Below are positions 22,407 through 24,665 of a stretch of 25,282 bases of DNA, one piece after another. The stretch comes from Bacteroidota bacterium (lineage in GTDB: Bacteria > Bacteroidota > Ignavibacteria > UBA10030): positions 1-25,282 of the forward strand of contig DASWKY010000083.1 of NCBI GenBank assembly GCA_036396395.1, read 5' to 3'. How positions within the stretch are numbered: the stretch's first letter is position 1; each line of letters begins with the position of its first letter. The position numbers and the translations under genes are program-made. The notes beneath the pieces were generated by a model that was not told the origin of the DNA, made no database searches, and was given only the letters and a program-made list of their open reading frames with translations.

Positions 22407-22473
22407 GTCATTCCCGAATGTTTCTATCGGGAATCTCTTCACTGGATGCCCGCTTACCGCATGCGGGCATGAC
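22407..22473. repeat. REP-like element of the GTCAT...ATGAC type
   Basis: GTCATTCCCG-N11-CGGGAATC...GGATGCCCGC-N9-GCGGGCATGAC, between convergent genes. Confidence 0.65.
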
Positions 22474-22487
22474 ATTGGGTAATATCT

Positions 22488-23138
22488 CTACAACGACTTA
22501 ATCACCCGCACAACTTTCCAGACAAACGACACATCTTTTTTCCGCACCACCATCGGCTCAAACTCCGGGTTCAGCGGCACGAGCTGAATGAACTCCGTTT
22601 CGATCTTCACGCGCTTCACCGTATCCTCGTCGTTCACGCGCACCACACAAATATCGCCACTGCGGGATTCTTGCTTCGGGCTGACCACAATCACGTCGCC
22701 GTCCTCGATGCGGGGCGCCATGCTGTTGCCCTTCACCACGAGCGCGAACGCGTTCGCGTCGCTCACGTTGTCCACGGTGATGTACTTTTCGACGTAGTCC
22801 GCGTGAAAGTACAAATTCGGCGCGCCGCCGGGGACGGACGACAATAACGGAACCGTCACTAACTCGACGCGCTTATAGCGGCTCATCGGCAAGTGCACAA
22901 TTTTCTTCTCCGTGGTCGTTCGCGCGAACATGTCGCCCTCGCCCGTTAAGAGCCAGTGGGCAGTCACGCCGGCCATCCGTGCAATGCGCATCAGGTAGTT
23001 GCTGTCCGGCGCCTGTTCGCCGTTCTCCCATCGCTGGATGGTGCGGGTAGCGACATCGATTTTCGCGGCGAGCTTCGCCTGGTCAAACCCTTTCGAAAGC
23101 CGCGCTTCGCGAATCCGCCGAGCAAGTTTAGTGTTCAT
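22488..23138 (-). CDS. XRE-type HTH plus S24 peptidase repressor (LexA/CI-like, 216 aa)
   Basis: N-terminal HTH (QAKLAAKIDVATRTIQRWENG, WLLTGEG), catalytic Ser in KGNSM and Lys in TVKR. RBS AGGAG. Confidence 0.9.
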   Translation of the reverse strand: MNTKLARRIREARLSKGFDQAKLAAKIDVATRTIQRWENGEQAPDSNYLMRIARMAGVTAHWLLTGEGDMFARTTTEKKIVHLPMSRYKRVELVTVPLLSSVPGGAPNLYFHADYVEKYITVDNVSDANAFALVVKGNSMAPRIEDGDVIVVSPKQESRSGDICVVRVNDEDTVKRVKIETEFIQLVPLNPEFEPMVVRKKDVSFVWKVVRVIKSL

Positions 23139-23169
23139 ACTGTCATGTCTCCTGAAAAATACAATCCAG

Positions 23170-23263
23170 ATGTCATTCTGAGCGTAGCGAAGAATCCCGC
23201 TTTCATATCGGCAGCTCTTATAACGAGTTTCTTCCGTAGGGATGCCTACGGCAGGAATGACAT
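23170..23263. repeat. REP-like element of the GTCAT...ATGAC type
   Basis: ATGTCATTCTGAGCGTAGCGAAGAATC ... TTCTTCC-GTAGGGATGCCTAC-GGCAGGAATGACAT, with terminal inverted ends. Confidence 0.65.
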
Positions 23264-23300
23264 AGTTTTTTTTCCTAAATATATATTTGTCGCATCGCGC

Positions 23301-23329
23301 TTGACACTATGACAAATTTGTCGTATCCT
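23301..23329 (+). promoter_or_regulatory. Sigma-70 promoter of the radical SAM gene with a palindromic operator in its spacer
   Basis: TTGACA (23301-23306)-N17-TATCCT (23324-23329). Perfect palindrome GACAAATTTGTC at 23311-23322. Confidence 0.7.
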
Positions 23330-23338
23330 CGCGCGGTC

Positions 23339-23367
23339 AACATACATAAAATTTTCATTTCTGTCAA
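23339..23367 (-). promoter_or_regulatory. Candidate sigma-70 promoter of the repressor gene, face-to-face with the one above
   Basis: Minus strand TTGACA-N17-TATGTT. Confidence 0.5.
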
Positions 23368-23378
23368 GAGGCATTACC

Positions 23379-24446
23379 ATGTTTTCGCTCACGATTAAAG
23401 GCCGGGGAGCGGGATTCAACCCGCCCAACCGGTTTGAGGAAATCTCCGTCGGTCCTCCCCCTGAAGACATTGCCCAGTATTTCGAGGAGCCGGACCTGGA
23501 GCGCAAAATCCCCACCAAATATTATATGGATAATACCAAAACGATATTGTCCAATAATGACAGCCCTGATATCGGCTTCCGGTACAGCATCAACCCCTAC
23601 CGGGGGTGCGAGCACGGATGTATTTACTGTTACGCCCGGCCGTCGCATGAGTATTTGGGGTTCTCGTCGGGTATGGATTTCGAGACGAAAATCCTCGTGA
23701 AAATGGACGCGCCGAAGCTCTTGGCGGAAGAACTTCGCAAGCCTTCGTGGGAACCGCAAGTCGTCGCGTTCTCCGGCAACACGGATTGCTACCAGCCGGT
23801 AGAACGAAAGTTAGAAATTACGCGCAAGTGTGTGGAGGTGTTTTTGAAATTCCGCAACCCGTTCGGGATGATCACCAAGAATGCTCTCGTCCAGCGCGAC
23901 ATTGACCTGCTGAAAGAACTCTCGTCTATGAATCTCGTGTGCGTTACGGTCAGCATTACGTCGCTGGATAACGAACTGATCAGAAAAATGGAGCCGCGCA
24001 CATCTGCGCCGCATAAGCGGCTGGAGACTATCGAGGTGCTGGCGAAAAACGGTATTCCCGTCGGCGTGAATGCCGCGCCGATCATCCCCGGCTTAACCGA
24101 CGTGGAGATCCCCGCCATCCTTAAAGCCGCCTCGGAGCGCGGAGCGAAATGGGCGGGACATACCATCGTGCGGCTCTCGTACGCGCTAAAGGATTTGTTC
24201 GTGGACTGGGCGAACCGCAACGTGCCGGAGAAAGCGCCGAAGATCATCAACCGCATCAAAGAGGTGCGCGGTGGGAAACTATCTAATTCCGACTTCGGCA
24301 CGCGAATGTCCGGCGAAGGGGAAATCGCCGAATCCATCCACCAGTTGTTCGAATCGAGCTGTCGTCGTTATCATCTCAATGAAGAACGGATGCATTTGAG
24401 CAAAGCGCACTTCACAAGGAACGCAGACCAGGTGGAGATGTTTTGA
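23379..24446 (+). CDS. PA0069/Rv2578c-family radical SAM protein (spore photoproduct lyase-like, 355 aa)
   Basis: KGRGA..NPPNRFE start, SINPYRGCEHGCIYCYARP (CxxxCxxC), NTDCYQPVER. Confidence 0.9.
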   Translation: MFSLTIKGRGAGFNPPNRFEEISVGPPPEDIAQYFEEPDLERKIPTKYYMDNTKTILSNNDSPDIGFRYSINPYRGCEHGCIYCYARPSHEYLGFSSGMDFETKILVKMDAPKLLAEELRKPSWEPQVVAFSGNTDCYQPVERKLEITRKCVEVFLKFRNPFGMITKNALVQRDIDLLKELSSMNLVCVTVSITSLDNELIRKMEPRTSAPHKRLETIEVLAKNGIPVGVNAAPIIPGLTDVEIPAILKAASERGAKWAGHTIVRLSYALKDLFVDWANRNVPEKAPKIINRIKEVRGGKLSNSDFGTRMSGEGEIAESIHQLFESSCRRYHLNEERMHLSKAHFTRNADQVEMF

Positions 24447-24481: not shown

Positions 24482-24665
24482 TAGAACCGGTCTCAAAAAT
24501 GGATAAAACTCATTCGGGATCGGGTTAAAACCCGGCATACATTTTTGGATCTCGTATCCACGCCCTGAAGGGCGTGGCTATTAGCCCCGACCTTTAGGTC
24601 GGGGAAATAATAACAAAAAAACTCAGGGCTTCAGCCCTTTACGCGTGTTTTTGAGGTGGGTTCTA
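24482..24665. mobile_element. 184-bp non-coding MITE-like element with imperfect terminal inverted repeats
   Basis: TAGAACCGGTCTCAAAAA (24482-24499) versus the reverse complement of 24648-24665, TAGAACCCACCTCAAAAA (15/18 match). TA at both ends and four internal hairpins. Confidence 0.55.

What the first reader, a model, noticed from the sequence alone, without database searches (positions are those of the whole stretch)
22488..24446. Candidate non-canonical SOS module: XRE-S24 repressor, radical SAM repair gene and a GACA-N4-TGTC operator
Seen: the repressor and the PA0069-type radical SAM gene are divergent. The perfect palindrome GACAAATTTGTC (23311-23322) lies in the spacer of TTGACA-N17-TATCCT. 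An opposing TTGACA-N17-TATGTT promoter (23367-23339) would start about 10 nt from the same site, so one operator could repress both. A half-site TTTGTCG occurs at 23286-23292. No phage genes are nearby. Known: PA0069-family genes are damage-inducible in several bacteria, and phage-repressor-like LexA proteins with lineage-specific boxes have been described in Bacteroidota. Inference: this is this lineage's LexA equivalent, with a possibly unreported box.
Basis: partly seen in the sequence, partly recalled or inferred. Interest (0 to 1): 0.62.

Follow-up and report, generated by a model that had tools for sequence, protein, structure and literature searches.

The report
Ignavibacterial SOS repressor and its operator
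A self-cleaving, phage-type repressor in this Ignavibacteria genome most likely does the job of the missing LexA, switching on a DNA-repair radical-SAM gene, an error-prone polymerase and itself after DNA damage. It would act through a 16-bp palindrome that no paper I could search reports.

Summary

- **Genes.** The window comes from a 59%-complete Ignavibacteria MAG. Gene 22488-23138(-) encodes an HTH_3 + S24 protein and is the only S24 gene in the assembly. Gene 23379-24446(+) is a PA0069-family (SplB-like) radical SAM.
- **Box.** GACAAATTTGTC is the core of a conserved box, aCGACA-W4-TGTCGt. The box lies upstream of the repressor gene in 27 of 30 relatives.
- **Promoter cassette.** The box also forms a stereotyped cassette, TTGACA-N4-box-G-TATnnT. 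This cassette has 107 hits in 77 of 121 genomes of the order, against 0 for the reversed control.
- **Regulon.** The cassettes sit in front of iRadA-PolB2 mutasome operons, DUF72, Y-family polymerases and this radical SAM. In the window's own genome the only other strong site lies upstream of dinB. recA carries no box.
- **Phyletic pattern.** The repressor and canonical LexA largely replace one another across families.
- **Open points.** Nothing has been tested at the bench. The position aligned to the LexA scissile bond is Gly-Gly, not Ala-Gly.
- **Novelty.** The box differs from the published Bacteroidetes boxes (GGA-N5-TCC, CTAA-N5-TTAG). I found no paper on it. This scan reached the same reading before on other Ignavibacteria DNA (e1-1203268, e1-923922, e1-1491293).

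The parts
22488..23138 (-). Repressor gene (216 aa). N-terminal Cro/CI-type HTH is residues 9-63. C-terminal S24 autopeptidase is residues 97-209. Ser139 and Lys175 form the catalytic dyad. Gly104-Gly105 lie at the position of the LexA scissile bond.
   Evidence: Pfam gives HTH_3 at 1e-12 and Peptidase_S24 at 2.3e-25. It is the only S24 gene in the assembly. Alignment to E. coli LexA structures is.
23379..24446 (+). PA0069-family (SplB-like, COG1533-type) radical SAM gene, 355 aa, with a CEHGCIYC 4Fe-4S motif.
   Evidence: NF033668 scores 470.6 bits against a cut-off of 360, and Radical_SAM scores 1.3e-19. The Cys motif was read.
23309..23324 (.). Operator O1, ATGACAAATTTGTCGT. It is a 16-bp palindromic box with core 23311-23322.
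   Evidence: It is the best matrix hit in the genome at 25.2 bits. The same box lies upstream of the repressor in 27 of 30 relatives.
23278..23293 (.). Degenerate operator O2 (AATATATATTTGTCGC). Only one half-site is kept. It lies 31 bp from O1.
   Evidence: Second boxes lie 30-32 bp from the first in 14 of 16 neighbouring pairs in relatives. In genus g1 (L003-L005) the distal half is lost.
23301..23329 (+). Radical SAM promoter: TTGACA, 17 nt, TATCCT, with O1 filling the spacer.
   Evidence: The promoter scan scores it 10 of 12. The same cassette, TTGACA-N4-box-G-TATnnT, occurs 107 times in 121 genomes with a control of 0.
23339..23367 (-). Repressor promoter: TTGACA, 17 nt, TATGTT. The predicted start is near 23332, which places O1 at about +10 to +21.
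   Evidence: The promoter scan scores it 10 of 12. The same layout is seen in L026 and L027. The start site is inferred.
23170..23263 (.). Small repeat element (ATGTCATTC...GAATGACAT ends) inserted in the repressor leader. It explains the unusually long distance of about 175 bp from the operator to the start codon.
   Evidence: The element is absent from the 99%-identical locus L004. The end motifs are over-represented in the genome.
24520..24545 (+). Terminator-like hairpin and T-rich tail after the radical SAM gene. It suggests a single-gene transcription unit.
   Evidence: Found. It is a consensus match only.

Best explanation
The 216-aa HTH_3/S24 protein is the SOS-type master repressor of Ignavibacteriales, a functional substitute for LexA.

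**Binding.** As a dimer it binds the 16-bp palindrome aCGACA-W4-TGTCGt. In this window a single full operator (O1, 23309-23324) fills the spacer between the -35 and -10 elements of the radical SAM promoter. The same operator lies at about +10 to +21 of the repressor's own opposing promoter. One bound dimer would therefore shut off both genes.

**Induction.** After DNA damage, RecA-ssDNA filaments would trigger self-cleavage by the Ser139/Lys175 dyad at the Gly104-Gly105 linker. Cleavage would separate the DNA-binding domain from the dimerisation domain. That would derepress the SplB-like radical SAM repair enzyme, dinB (site on contig C26) and the repressor gene itself.

**What is shown.** The shown items are the domain content, the catalytic residues, the conserved operator and promoter architecture, the composition of the regulon, and the complementary distribution with canonical LexA.

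**What is inferred.** Physical binding, RecA-dependent cleavage and damage induction are inferred.
For: - Domains and catalytic Ser/Lys are present and conserved in 30 orthologues.
- It is the only S24 gene in the assembly. It is single-copy in 85 of 121 genomes of the order at 50-99% identity.
- The box lies upstream of the repressor gene in 27 of 30 relatives. Many carry two copies 30-32 bp apart.
- The composite TTGACA-N4-GACAWWWWTGTC has 107 hits in 77 of 121 genomes, against 0 for the reversed control. Nearly all hits are followed by G-TATnnT.
- Genes downstream of these sites are about 57 iRadA-like plus family-B polymerase operons, 29 DUF72, about 9 Y-family polymerases, 4 PA0069 radical SAM, 2 TcmP and 2 DUF559.
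- In the own genome the top two matrix hits are O1 (25.2 bits) and C26:6451 (23.6 bits) in the dinB leader. The dinB site is conserved in the same-genus genome G002 while its flanks differ.
- Families f6 and f7 have the repressor in 0 of 28 genomes, the box in 1 of 28 and a canonical LexA DNA-binding domain in 20 of 28. The other families have the repressor in 84 of 92 and the box in 75 of 92.
- In family f1 the radical SAM orthologue has its own box in 4 genomes and trails a box-controlled PolB2 operon in 5, out of 11.
- SplB/COG1533 is a known SOS gene in other phyla (PMC8565304).
Against: - No experiment supports any step.
- The residue aligned to LexA Ala84 is Gly. The motif is VPGGAP, and it reads VPAG in only 6 of 30 orthologues. 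Cleavage competence at Gly-Gly is therefore unproven.
- recA has no box within 1.5 kb in 30 relatives. The regulon is only 2-4 operons per genome, so 'global SOS regulator' may overstate it.
- In the own genome the dinB box lies about 55 bp upstream of the best -35-like hexamer, not inside a promoter spacer.
- O2 is degenerate in this genus.
- The assembly is 59% complete, so other sites and a second regulator could be missed. No LexA_DNA_bind match was listed for the 97%-complete genome G002, but it was not in the order sample; only G000 and the genus tallies were searched.
Confidence: 0.8

Rival explanations
1. The protein is a dedicated local regulator of damage-tolerance cassettes (PolB2 mutasome, dinB, radical SAM, DUF72), not a LexA equivalent. 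It may respond to a signal other than RecA filaments, or may not self-cleave at all.
For: The regulon is small and excludes recA. The scissile-bond position is Gly-Gly, not Ala-Gly. Three f5 genomes carry both this repressor and a canonical LexA (G080, G132, G100).
Against: The catalytic dyad and the cleavage-loop context (PLLSSVP-G/A-G) are strictly conserved. Distribution with canonical LexA is largely complementary. Small SOS regulons without recA are known from other lineages; this rests on my own knowledge of SOS comparative genomics.
Confidence: 0.12
2. The palindrome is bound by some other transcription factor, and its nearness to the S24 repressor gene is coincidental.
For: There are no binding data. 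A few genomes have boxes but no detected repressor (G031, G073), and their sites lie near contig ends.
Against: The box marks the repressor's own promoter in 27 of 30 relatives. It is all but missing from the 28 genomes of families that lack the repressor, with 1 of 28 positive. The recognition helix region is nearly invariant, matching the invariant GACA/TGTC arms.
Confidence: 0.05
3. The gene is a CI-type repressor left behind by a degraded prophage or mobile element, and the palindrome is its immunity operator.
For: The N-terminal domain matches phage 434 and CI repressors. A small repeat element lies in the leader.
Against: No phage genes are in the window. The gene is single-copy and vertically conserved across seven families of the order. 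Its targets are chromosomal repair genes at separate loci.
Confidence: 0.03

Closest known systems
Non-canonical LexA proteins of the Bacteroidetes (Sanchez-Osuna et al., NAR 2021, PMC8565304)
   Same: Both have a PF01381-type HTH fused to an S24 autopeptidase with a Ser-Lys dyad. Both are chromosomal and autoregulated. Both control dinB and splB-type radical SAM genes through a short AT-spaced palindrome, often in two copies. Both occur where canonical LexA is missing.
   Different: The box here is GACA-N4-TGTC, whereas theirs are GGA-N5-TCC, CTAA-N5-TTAG and TTAC-N5-GTAA. The paper never mentions Ignavibacteria. It calls its family exclusive to Bacteroidetes. Best matches outside the order are at most 37% identical with E of 1e-17 or weaker. 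Gly-Gly replaces Ala-Gly. recA is not a target. The core targets here are a PolB2 mutasome and DUF72.
Canonical LexA (TIGR00498; PF01726 + PF00717)
   Same: The C-terminal S24 domain aligns to E. coli LexA residues 74-188, including Ser119 and Lys156. The logic of repressing itself and translesion polymerases is the same.
   Different: There is no winged-helix LexA DNA-binding domain. TIGR00498 scores 71 bits against a cut-off of 110.95 and matches the C-terminal half only. The operator is different. Canonical LexA is kept by sister family f7, which lacks this protein.
HdiR (Lactococcus and Streptococcus) and FddR (Francisella, PMC13148647): phage-type S24 repressors of damage regulons
   Same: All are phage-CI-like HTH/S24 proteins recruited as chromosomal DNA-damage regulators.
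   Different: They come from other phyla and have unrelated operators. They were not compared by sequence here, so this is a resemblance drawn from the literature list and my own knowledge.
iRadA-PPB2-PolB2 mutasome operon (Makarova 2014, PMC4104785; Timinskas and Venclovas 2025, PMC11791011)
   Same: It is the commonest target of the box in relatives. The 2025 paper notes lexA enrichment next to bacterial polB2.
   Different: It was not found in the window's genus (G000, G001, G002). Here the radical SAM that trails the PolB2 operon in relatives has its own box-controlled promoter beside the repressor. The paper gives no operator.

Membership tests
Bacteroidetes non-canonical LexA (PMC8565304) | PF01381 penta-helical HTH at the N-terminus plus an S24 peptidase at the C-terminus | tested here: met
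   HTH_3 scores 1e-12 over residues 9-63. Peptidase_S24 scores 2.3e-25 over residues 97-209.
Bacteroidetes non-canonical LexA (PMC8565304) | Conserved Ser-Lys catalytic dyad | tested here: met
   Ser139 (GNSM) and Lys175 (TVKR) align to LexA Ser119 and Lys156. Both are invariant in 30 orthologues.
Bacteroidetes non-canonical LexA (PMC8565304) | Ala-Gly scissile bond | tested here: not met
   The aligned position is Gly104-Gly105 (VPGGAP). Ala-Gly is present in only 6 of 30 orthologues. Whether Gly-Gly is cleaved is unknown.
Bacteroidetes non-canonical LexA (PMC8565304) | Targets GGA-N5-TCC or CTAA-N5-TTAG | tested here: not met
   The conserved box is aCGACA-W4-TGTCGt, with a 4-bp spacer. The published motifs are quoted.
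Bacteroidetes non-canonical LexA (PMC8565304) | Member of the single clade described as exclusive to Bacteroidetes | tested here: inconclusive
   There is a sharp gap in similarity. Within the order, matches reach E of 1e-64 or stronger. Elsewhere in the phylum they are E of 1e-17 or weaker and at most 37% identical.
Canonical LexA (TIGR00498) | Winged-helix LexA_DNA_bind domain (PF01726) and a score above the equivalog cut-off | tested here: not met
   There is no PF01726 hit. TIGR00498 scores 71.1 bits against a cut-off of 110.95, over the C-terminal half only.
SOS-type regulon | Autoregulation: the box lies in the regulator's own promoter | tested here: met
   27 of 30 orthologous upstream regions carry a box of 14 bits or more.
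SOS-type regulon | The box lies upstream of DNA repair or translesion genes at separate loci | tested here: met
   dinB in the own genome carries a site. PolB2 operons, DUF72, Y-family polymerases and the radical SAM carry sites across 77 genomes.
SOS-type regulon | recA under the same box | tested here: not met
   No site of 14 bits or more lies within 1.5 kb of recA in 30 genomes.
SOS-type regulon | RecA-dependent self-cleavage and induction by DNA damage | not testable with these tools
   This needs biochemistry and transcriptomics.
PA0069 family radical SAM (NF033668) | Score above the curated cut-off and a CxxxCxxC cluster motif | tested here: met
   It scores 470.6 bits against a cut-off of 360 over the full length. 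CEHGCIYC was read from the sequence.
Prophage CI repressor | Phage or mobile-element gene context | tested here: not met
   The neighbours are metabolic genes. The gene is single-copy in 85 of 121 genomes.

The most novel reading that the evidence does not exclude
Inside the order Ignavibacteriales a phage-CI-type repressor was domesticated separately from the Bacteroidetes non-canonical LexA and displaced canonical LexA, which one sister family still keeps. It brought a new box (aCGACA-W4-TGTCGt) built into a fixed promoter cassette, a scissile site that has drifted to Gly-Gly, and a recA-less regulon. That regulon ties three poorly understood gene families to DNA-damage tolerance: PA0069 radical SAM, DUF72 and TcmP.
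Probability: 0.5. Interest if true: 0.65.

Novelty: new variant of a known kind. Interest (0 to 1): 0.55.

Why it matters
- **A missing SOS system.** The SOS system of Ignavibacteria has not been described. A full-text search for Ignavibacteria plus LexA gave three unrelated papers.
- **Regulator displacement.** A defined operator and regulator show a further case of LexA being replaced by a phage-type repressor. Both states are still present in sister families, so the displacement can be traced.
- **Function prediction.** The box gives a simple sequence marker for damage-inducible genes in an uncultured-rich class. It places PA0069-type radical SAM, DUF72 and TcmP genes in a DNA-damage regulon, which narrows hypotheses for their unknown functions.
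- **Cleavage chemistry.** It offers a natural Gly-Gly variant of the S24 cleavage site to test.

Tried and rejected
- **Loose pattern.** GACA-N4-TGTC in the own genome gave 15 hits against about 22 expected by chance, so there is no enrichment. The informative form needs an AT spacer and the C/G flanks.
- **recA control.** I rejected it. In the own genome recA directly follows another ORF with no box. No box appears in 30 recA loci.
- **False sites.** Several exact 12-mers are not operators. Some lie inside coding sequence, for example the alanine-racemase-fold gene in L064 and L066. Others are IS terminal repeats in G006 (L080, L082, L083, L086).
- **ImuA reading.** I first read the roughly 260-aa RecA-fold protein as ImuA-like. 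I now treat it as the iRadA of the published PolB2 mutasome, on the strength of earlier notes and PMC11791011. My own evidence for that name is only weak Rad51/Dmc1 hits and the adjacent family-B polymerase.
- **Gly at the scissile position.** I searched the literature for tolerance of Gly at LexA position 84 and found nothing usable.
- **Hairpins in the leader.** An inverted-repeat scan of the control region found only the operator palindrome itself.
- **Not run.** No structure prediction was run. It would not have settled binding or cleavage.
Full report
**1. Observation.**

GACAAATTTGTC lies at 23311-23322. It sits inside the 17-nt spacer of TTGACA (23301-06) / TATCCT (23324-29) on the + strand. 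On the - strand, TTGACA (23367-62) / TATGTT (23344-39) faces it. The consensus scan returns these two as its best promoter-like sites, each 10 of 12.

With starts predicted 7 nt after each -10 element, the two transcripts begin about 4 bp apart and run away from each other. Each promoter's recognition elements therefore lie in the other's early transcribed region. The palindrome covers the radical SAM spacer and about +10 to +21 of the repressor transcript.

ORF 22488-23138(-) is HTH_3 + Peptidase_S24. ORF 23379-24446(+) is a full-length PA0069-family radical SAM, at 470.6 bits against a cut-off of 360, with a CEHGCIYC cluster motif. The neighbours are an SDR, an alanine-racemase-fold enzyme, a 2-oxoacid dehydrogenase E1 and a GldA-like ABC ATPase. 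No phage genes are present.

**2. Organism and genome.**

The window is the longest contig of a 1.46-Mb assembly in 306 contigs, 58.6% complete. Record titles of close relatives name Ignavibacteria, Ignavibacteriales and Ignavibacteriaceae within Bacteroidota. The repressor is the only S24 gene in the assembly.

**3. Is the palindrome an operator?**

The loose pattern GACA-N4-TGTC is not enriched: 15 found in the genome against about 22 expected. Comparison with relatives settles the matter.

- The repressor has one orthologue per genome in 30 or more of 40 relatives.
- Of 30 upstream regions, 27 carry a box of 14 bits or more, with consensus aCGACA-W4-TGTCGt.
- Fifteen of the 30 carry a second box. 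The spacing is 30-32 bp in 14 of 16 neighbouring pairs.
- In the window's genus the second box has lost its distal half (AATATATATTTGTCGC, 23278-23293).
- GACAWWWWTGTC occurs 146 times in 24 same-family genomes, against 29 for the reversed control.

**4. A fixed promoter-operator cassette.**

In relatives the box is usually preceded by TTGACA plus 4 nt. I searched TTGACA-N4-GACAWWWWTGTC in 121 genomes of the order. It gave 107 hits in 77 genomes, and the reversed control gave none. Nearly every hit continues G-TATnnT, so the box fills a 17-nt spacer just as in the window.

**5. What the cassette controls.**

I clustered the first downstream ORFs and annotated representatives.

| Downstream target | Number of sites |
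|---|---|
| RecA/Rad51-fold protein followed by a family-B polymerase | about 57 |
| DUF72 (mostly divergent from the repressor) | 29 |
| Y-family polymerase | about 9 |
| PA0069 radical SAM | 4 |
| TcmP operon | 2 |
| DUF559 | 2 |

The first of these matches the published iRadA-PPB2-PolB2 mutasome operon. Its authors noted lexA enrichment beside bacterial polB2 (PMC11791011). I took that name from earlier notes of this scan and checked it only in part.

**6. The window's own genome.**

A 16-bp matrix built from the cassette sites gives two outstanding hits in the whole assembly. One is O1, at 25.2 bits. The other is C26:6451 (ACGACAAAAATGTCGC, 23.6 bits), in the 373-bp leader of dinB (C26:6631-7866). 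The next best hit scores 16.4 bits and lies inside a long ORF.

The same-genus genome G002 keeps the dinB box while its flanks differ. G002 also has a box in front of a TcmP plus radical-SAM-like operon. PolB2 and DUF72 were not found in G000, G001 or the 97%-complete G002. In this genus the regulon therefore appears trimmed to the repressor, the radical SAM, dinB and perhaps TcmP.

**7. The radical SAM as a regulon member.**

Eleven orthologues from the same family were among the loci examined.

- Four have their own box: G000, G041, G008 and G106.
- Five lie directly after a box-controlled PolB2 operon.
- Two have no box within 1.5 kb.

Most orthologues in other families show no box nearby. 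The divergent pairing of repressor and radical SAM seen here is limited to genus g1 and G041. A more distant radical SAM sits in the same position in G027.

**8. recA.**

No box of 14 bits or more lies within 1.5 kb of recA in 30 genomes. In the own genome recA directly follows another ORF.

**9. Displacement of LexA.**

| Families | Repressor orthologue | Box cassette | Canonical LexA_DNA_bind |
|---|---|---|---|
| f1 | 24/24 | part of 75/92 | few |
| f2 | 10/11 | part of 75/92 | few |
| f3 | 2/3 | part of 75/92 | few |
| f4 | 3/3 | part of 75/92 | few |
| f5 | 21/24 | part of 75/92 | few |
| f8 | 21/24 | part of 75/92 | few |
| f9 | 3/3 | part of 75/92 | few |
| f6 | 0/4 | part of 1/28 | 0/4 |
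| f7 | 0/24 | part of 1/28 | 20/24 |

Sources are for the repressor, for the cassette and for LexA. In f7 the LexA domain sits in ORFs of about 220-235 aa. The strong LexA matches outside f7 are in G114, G028, G057, G080, G132 and G100. Three of these also carry the XRE-S24 protein.

Outside the order, the best matches to the repressor drop from E of 1e-64 or stronger to E of 1e-17 or weaker, at no more than 37% identity. Most of those matches cover only the S24 half.

**10. The protein.**

The S24 domain aligns to E. coli LexA residues 74-188. Ser139 (GNSM) and Lys175 (TVKR) match Ser119 and Lys156, and both are invariant in 30 orthologues. The helix-turn-helix region is nearly invariant, which fits the invariant operator arms.

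The residues aligned to the LexA Ala84-Gly85 bond are Gly104-Gly105 (VPGGAP). Six more distant orthologues have VPAG. I found no data on whether Gly is tolerated at this position.

**11. Comparison with what is known.**

The closest described system is the non-canonical LexA of Bacteroidetes (PMC8565304). It shares the domain architecture, the autoregulation and the control of dinB and splB. Its boxes are GGA-N5-TCC, CTAA-N5-TTAG and TTAC-N5-GTAA. That paper does not mention Ignavibacteria. It states that its family is exclusive to Bacteroidetes.

The Ignavibacterial protein works like these but fails two literal membership features, the motif and Ala-Gly. Its clade placement is untested. Public annotations already call relatives 'repressor LexA', 'LexA family protein' or 'XRE family transcriptional regulator'. 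That is automatic naming, not evidence of function. A full-text search for Ignavibacteria plus LexA found nothing relevant.

**12. Earlier notes of this scan.**

The same repressor and box were read the same way on other Ignavibacteria DNA (e1-1203268, e1-923922, e1-1491293, e1-4453394). My tests were run independently on this genome and on 121 genomes of the order, and they agree.

Six items specific to this window came out of my own tests:

- the radical SAM as the divergent partner;
- the degenerate O2;
- the dinB site in the same genome;
- PolB2 and DUF72 not found in the genus;
- the family-level complementarity with canonical LexA;
- the Gly-Gly site.

**13. Verdict.**

This is a new variant of a known kind, a phage-type S24 repressor acting as an SOS regulator. 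It has an operator I could not find in the literature and a compact regulon without recA. Binding, cleavage and induction remain to be shown.

Noticed in passing
window 23170-23263: A small element of about 94 bp with 9-bp terminal inverted repeats (ATGTCATTC...GAATGACAT) is inserted in the repressor leader. It is absent from the 99%-identical locus in G001. The end motifs occur 18-19 times in the assembly against about 5.6 expected.
   Followed up: partly
window 22407-22470: Two hairpin-type repeats lie just downstream of the repressor stop codon: GTCATTCCCGA...TCGGGAATC and GCCCGC...GCGGGC. They resemble REP-like intergenic elements. The dinB leader on contig C26 (6258-6630) also carries such hairpins.
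   Followed up: no
L071:1351-2992 (G002) and L073:1350-3094 (G016): A box-controlled operon encodes TcmP (TIGR04474, three-Cys-motif partner) and a protein weakly similar to 'radical SAM mobile pair protein A' (TIGR04471, 74 bits against a cut-off of 355). It is an unexplained member of the damage regulon.
   Followed up: partly
L131:701-1066 and L134:671-1120: In two genomes of genus g18, a DUF559 (Vsr-like endonuclease fold) gene is the first gene after the box, ahead of the iRadA-PolB2 operon.
   Followed up: no
L080, L082, L083, L086 (G006): The exact 12-mer GACAATTTTGTC also forms part of the terminal repeat of a multi-copy IS element with a 390-aa transposase. It is a source of false positives in box scans.
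   Followed up: partly
G045, G062, G066, G089, G097, G100, G129 (and coordinates): In family f5 the PA0069 radical SAM lies about 2-3.5 kb from the repressor gene on the same contig. It has no box within 1.5 kb upstream where this was checked. This linkage pattern differs from the divergent pairing in the window.
   Followed up: no
L009 and L011 (G015, G010): The repressor orthologues in these two genomes have no box within 330 bp upstream. They appear to follow a small co-directional ORF. L008 also lacks a nearby box, although a cassette lies about 700 bp away (G017:C12:31083).
   Followed up: no
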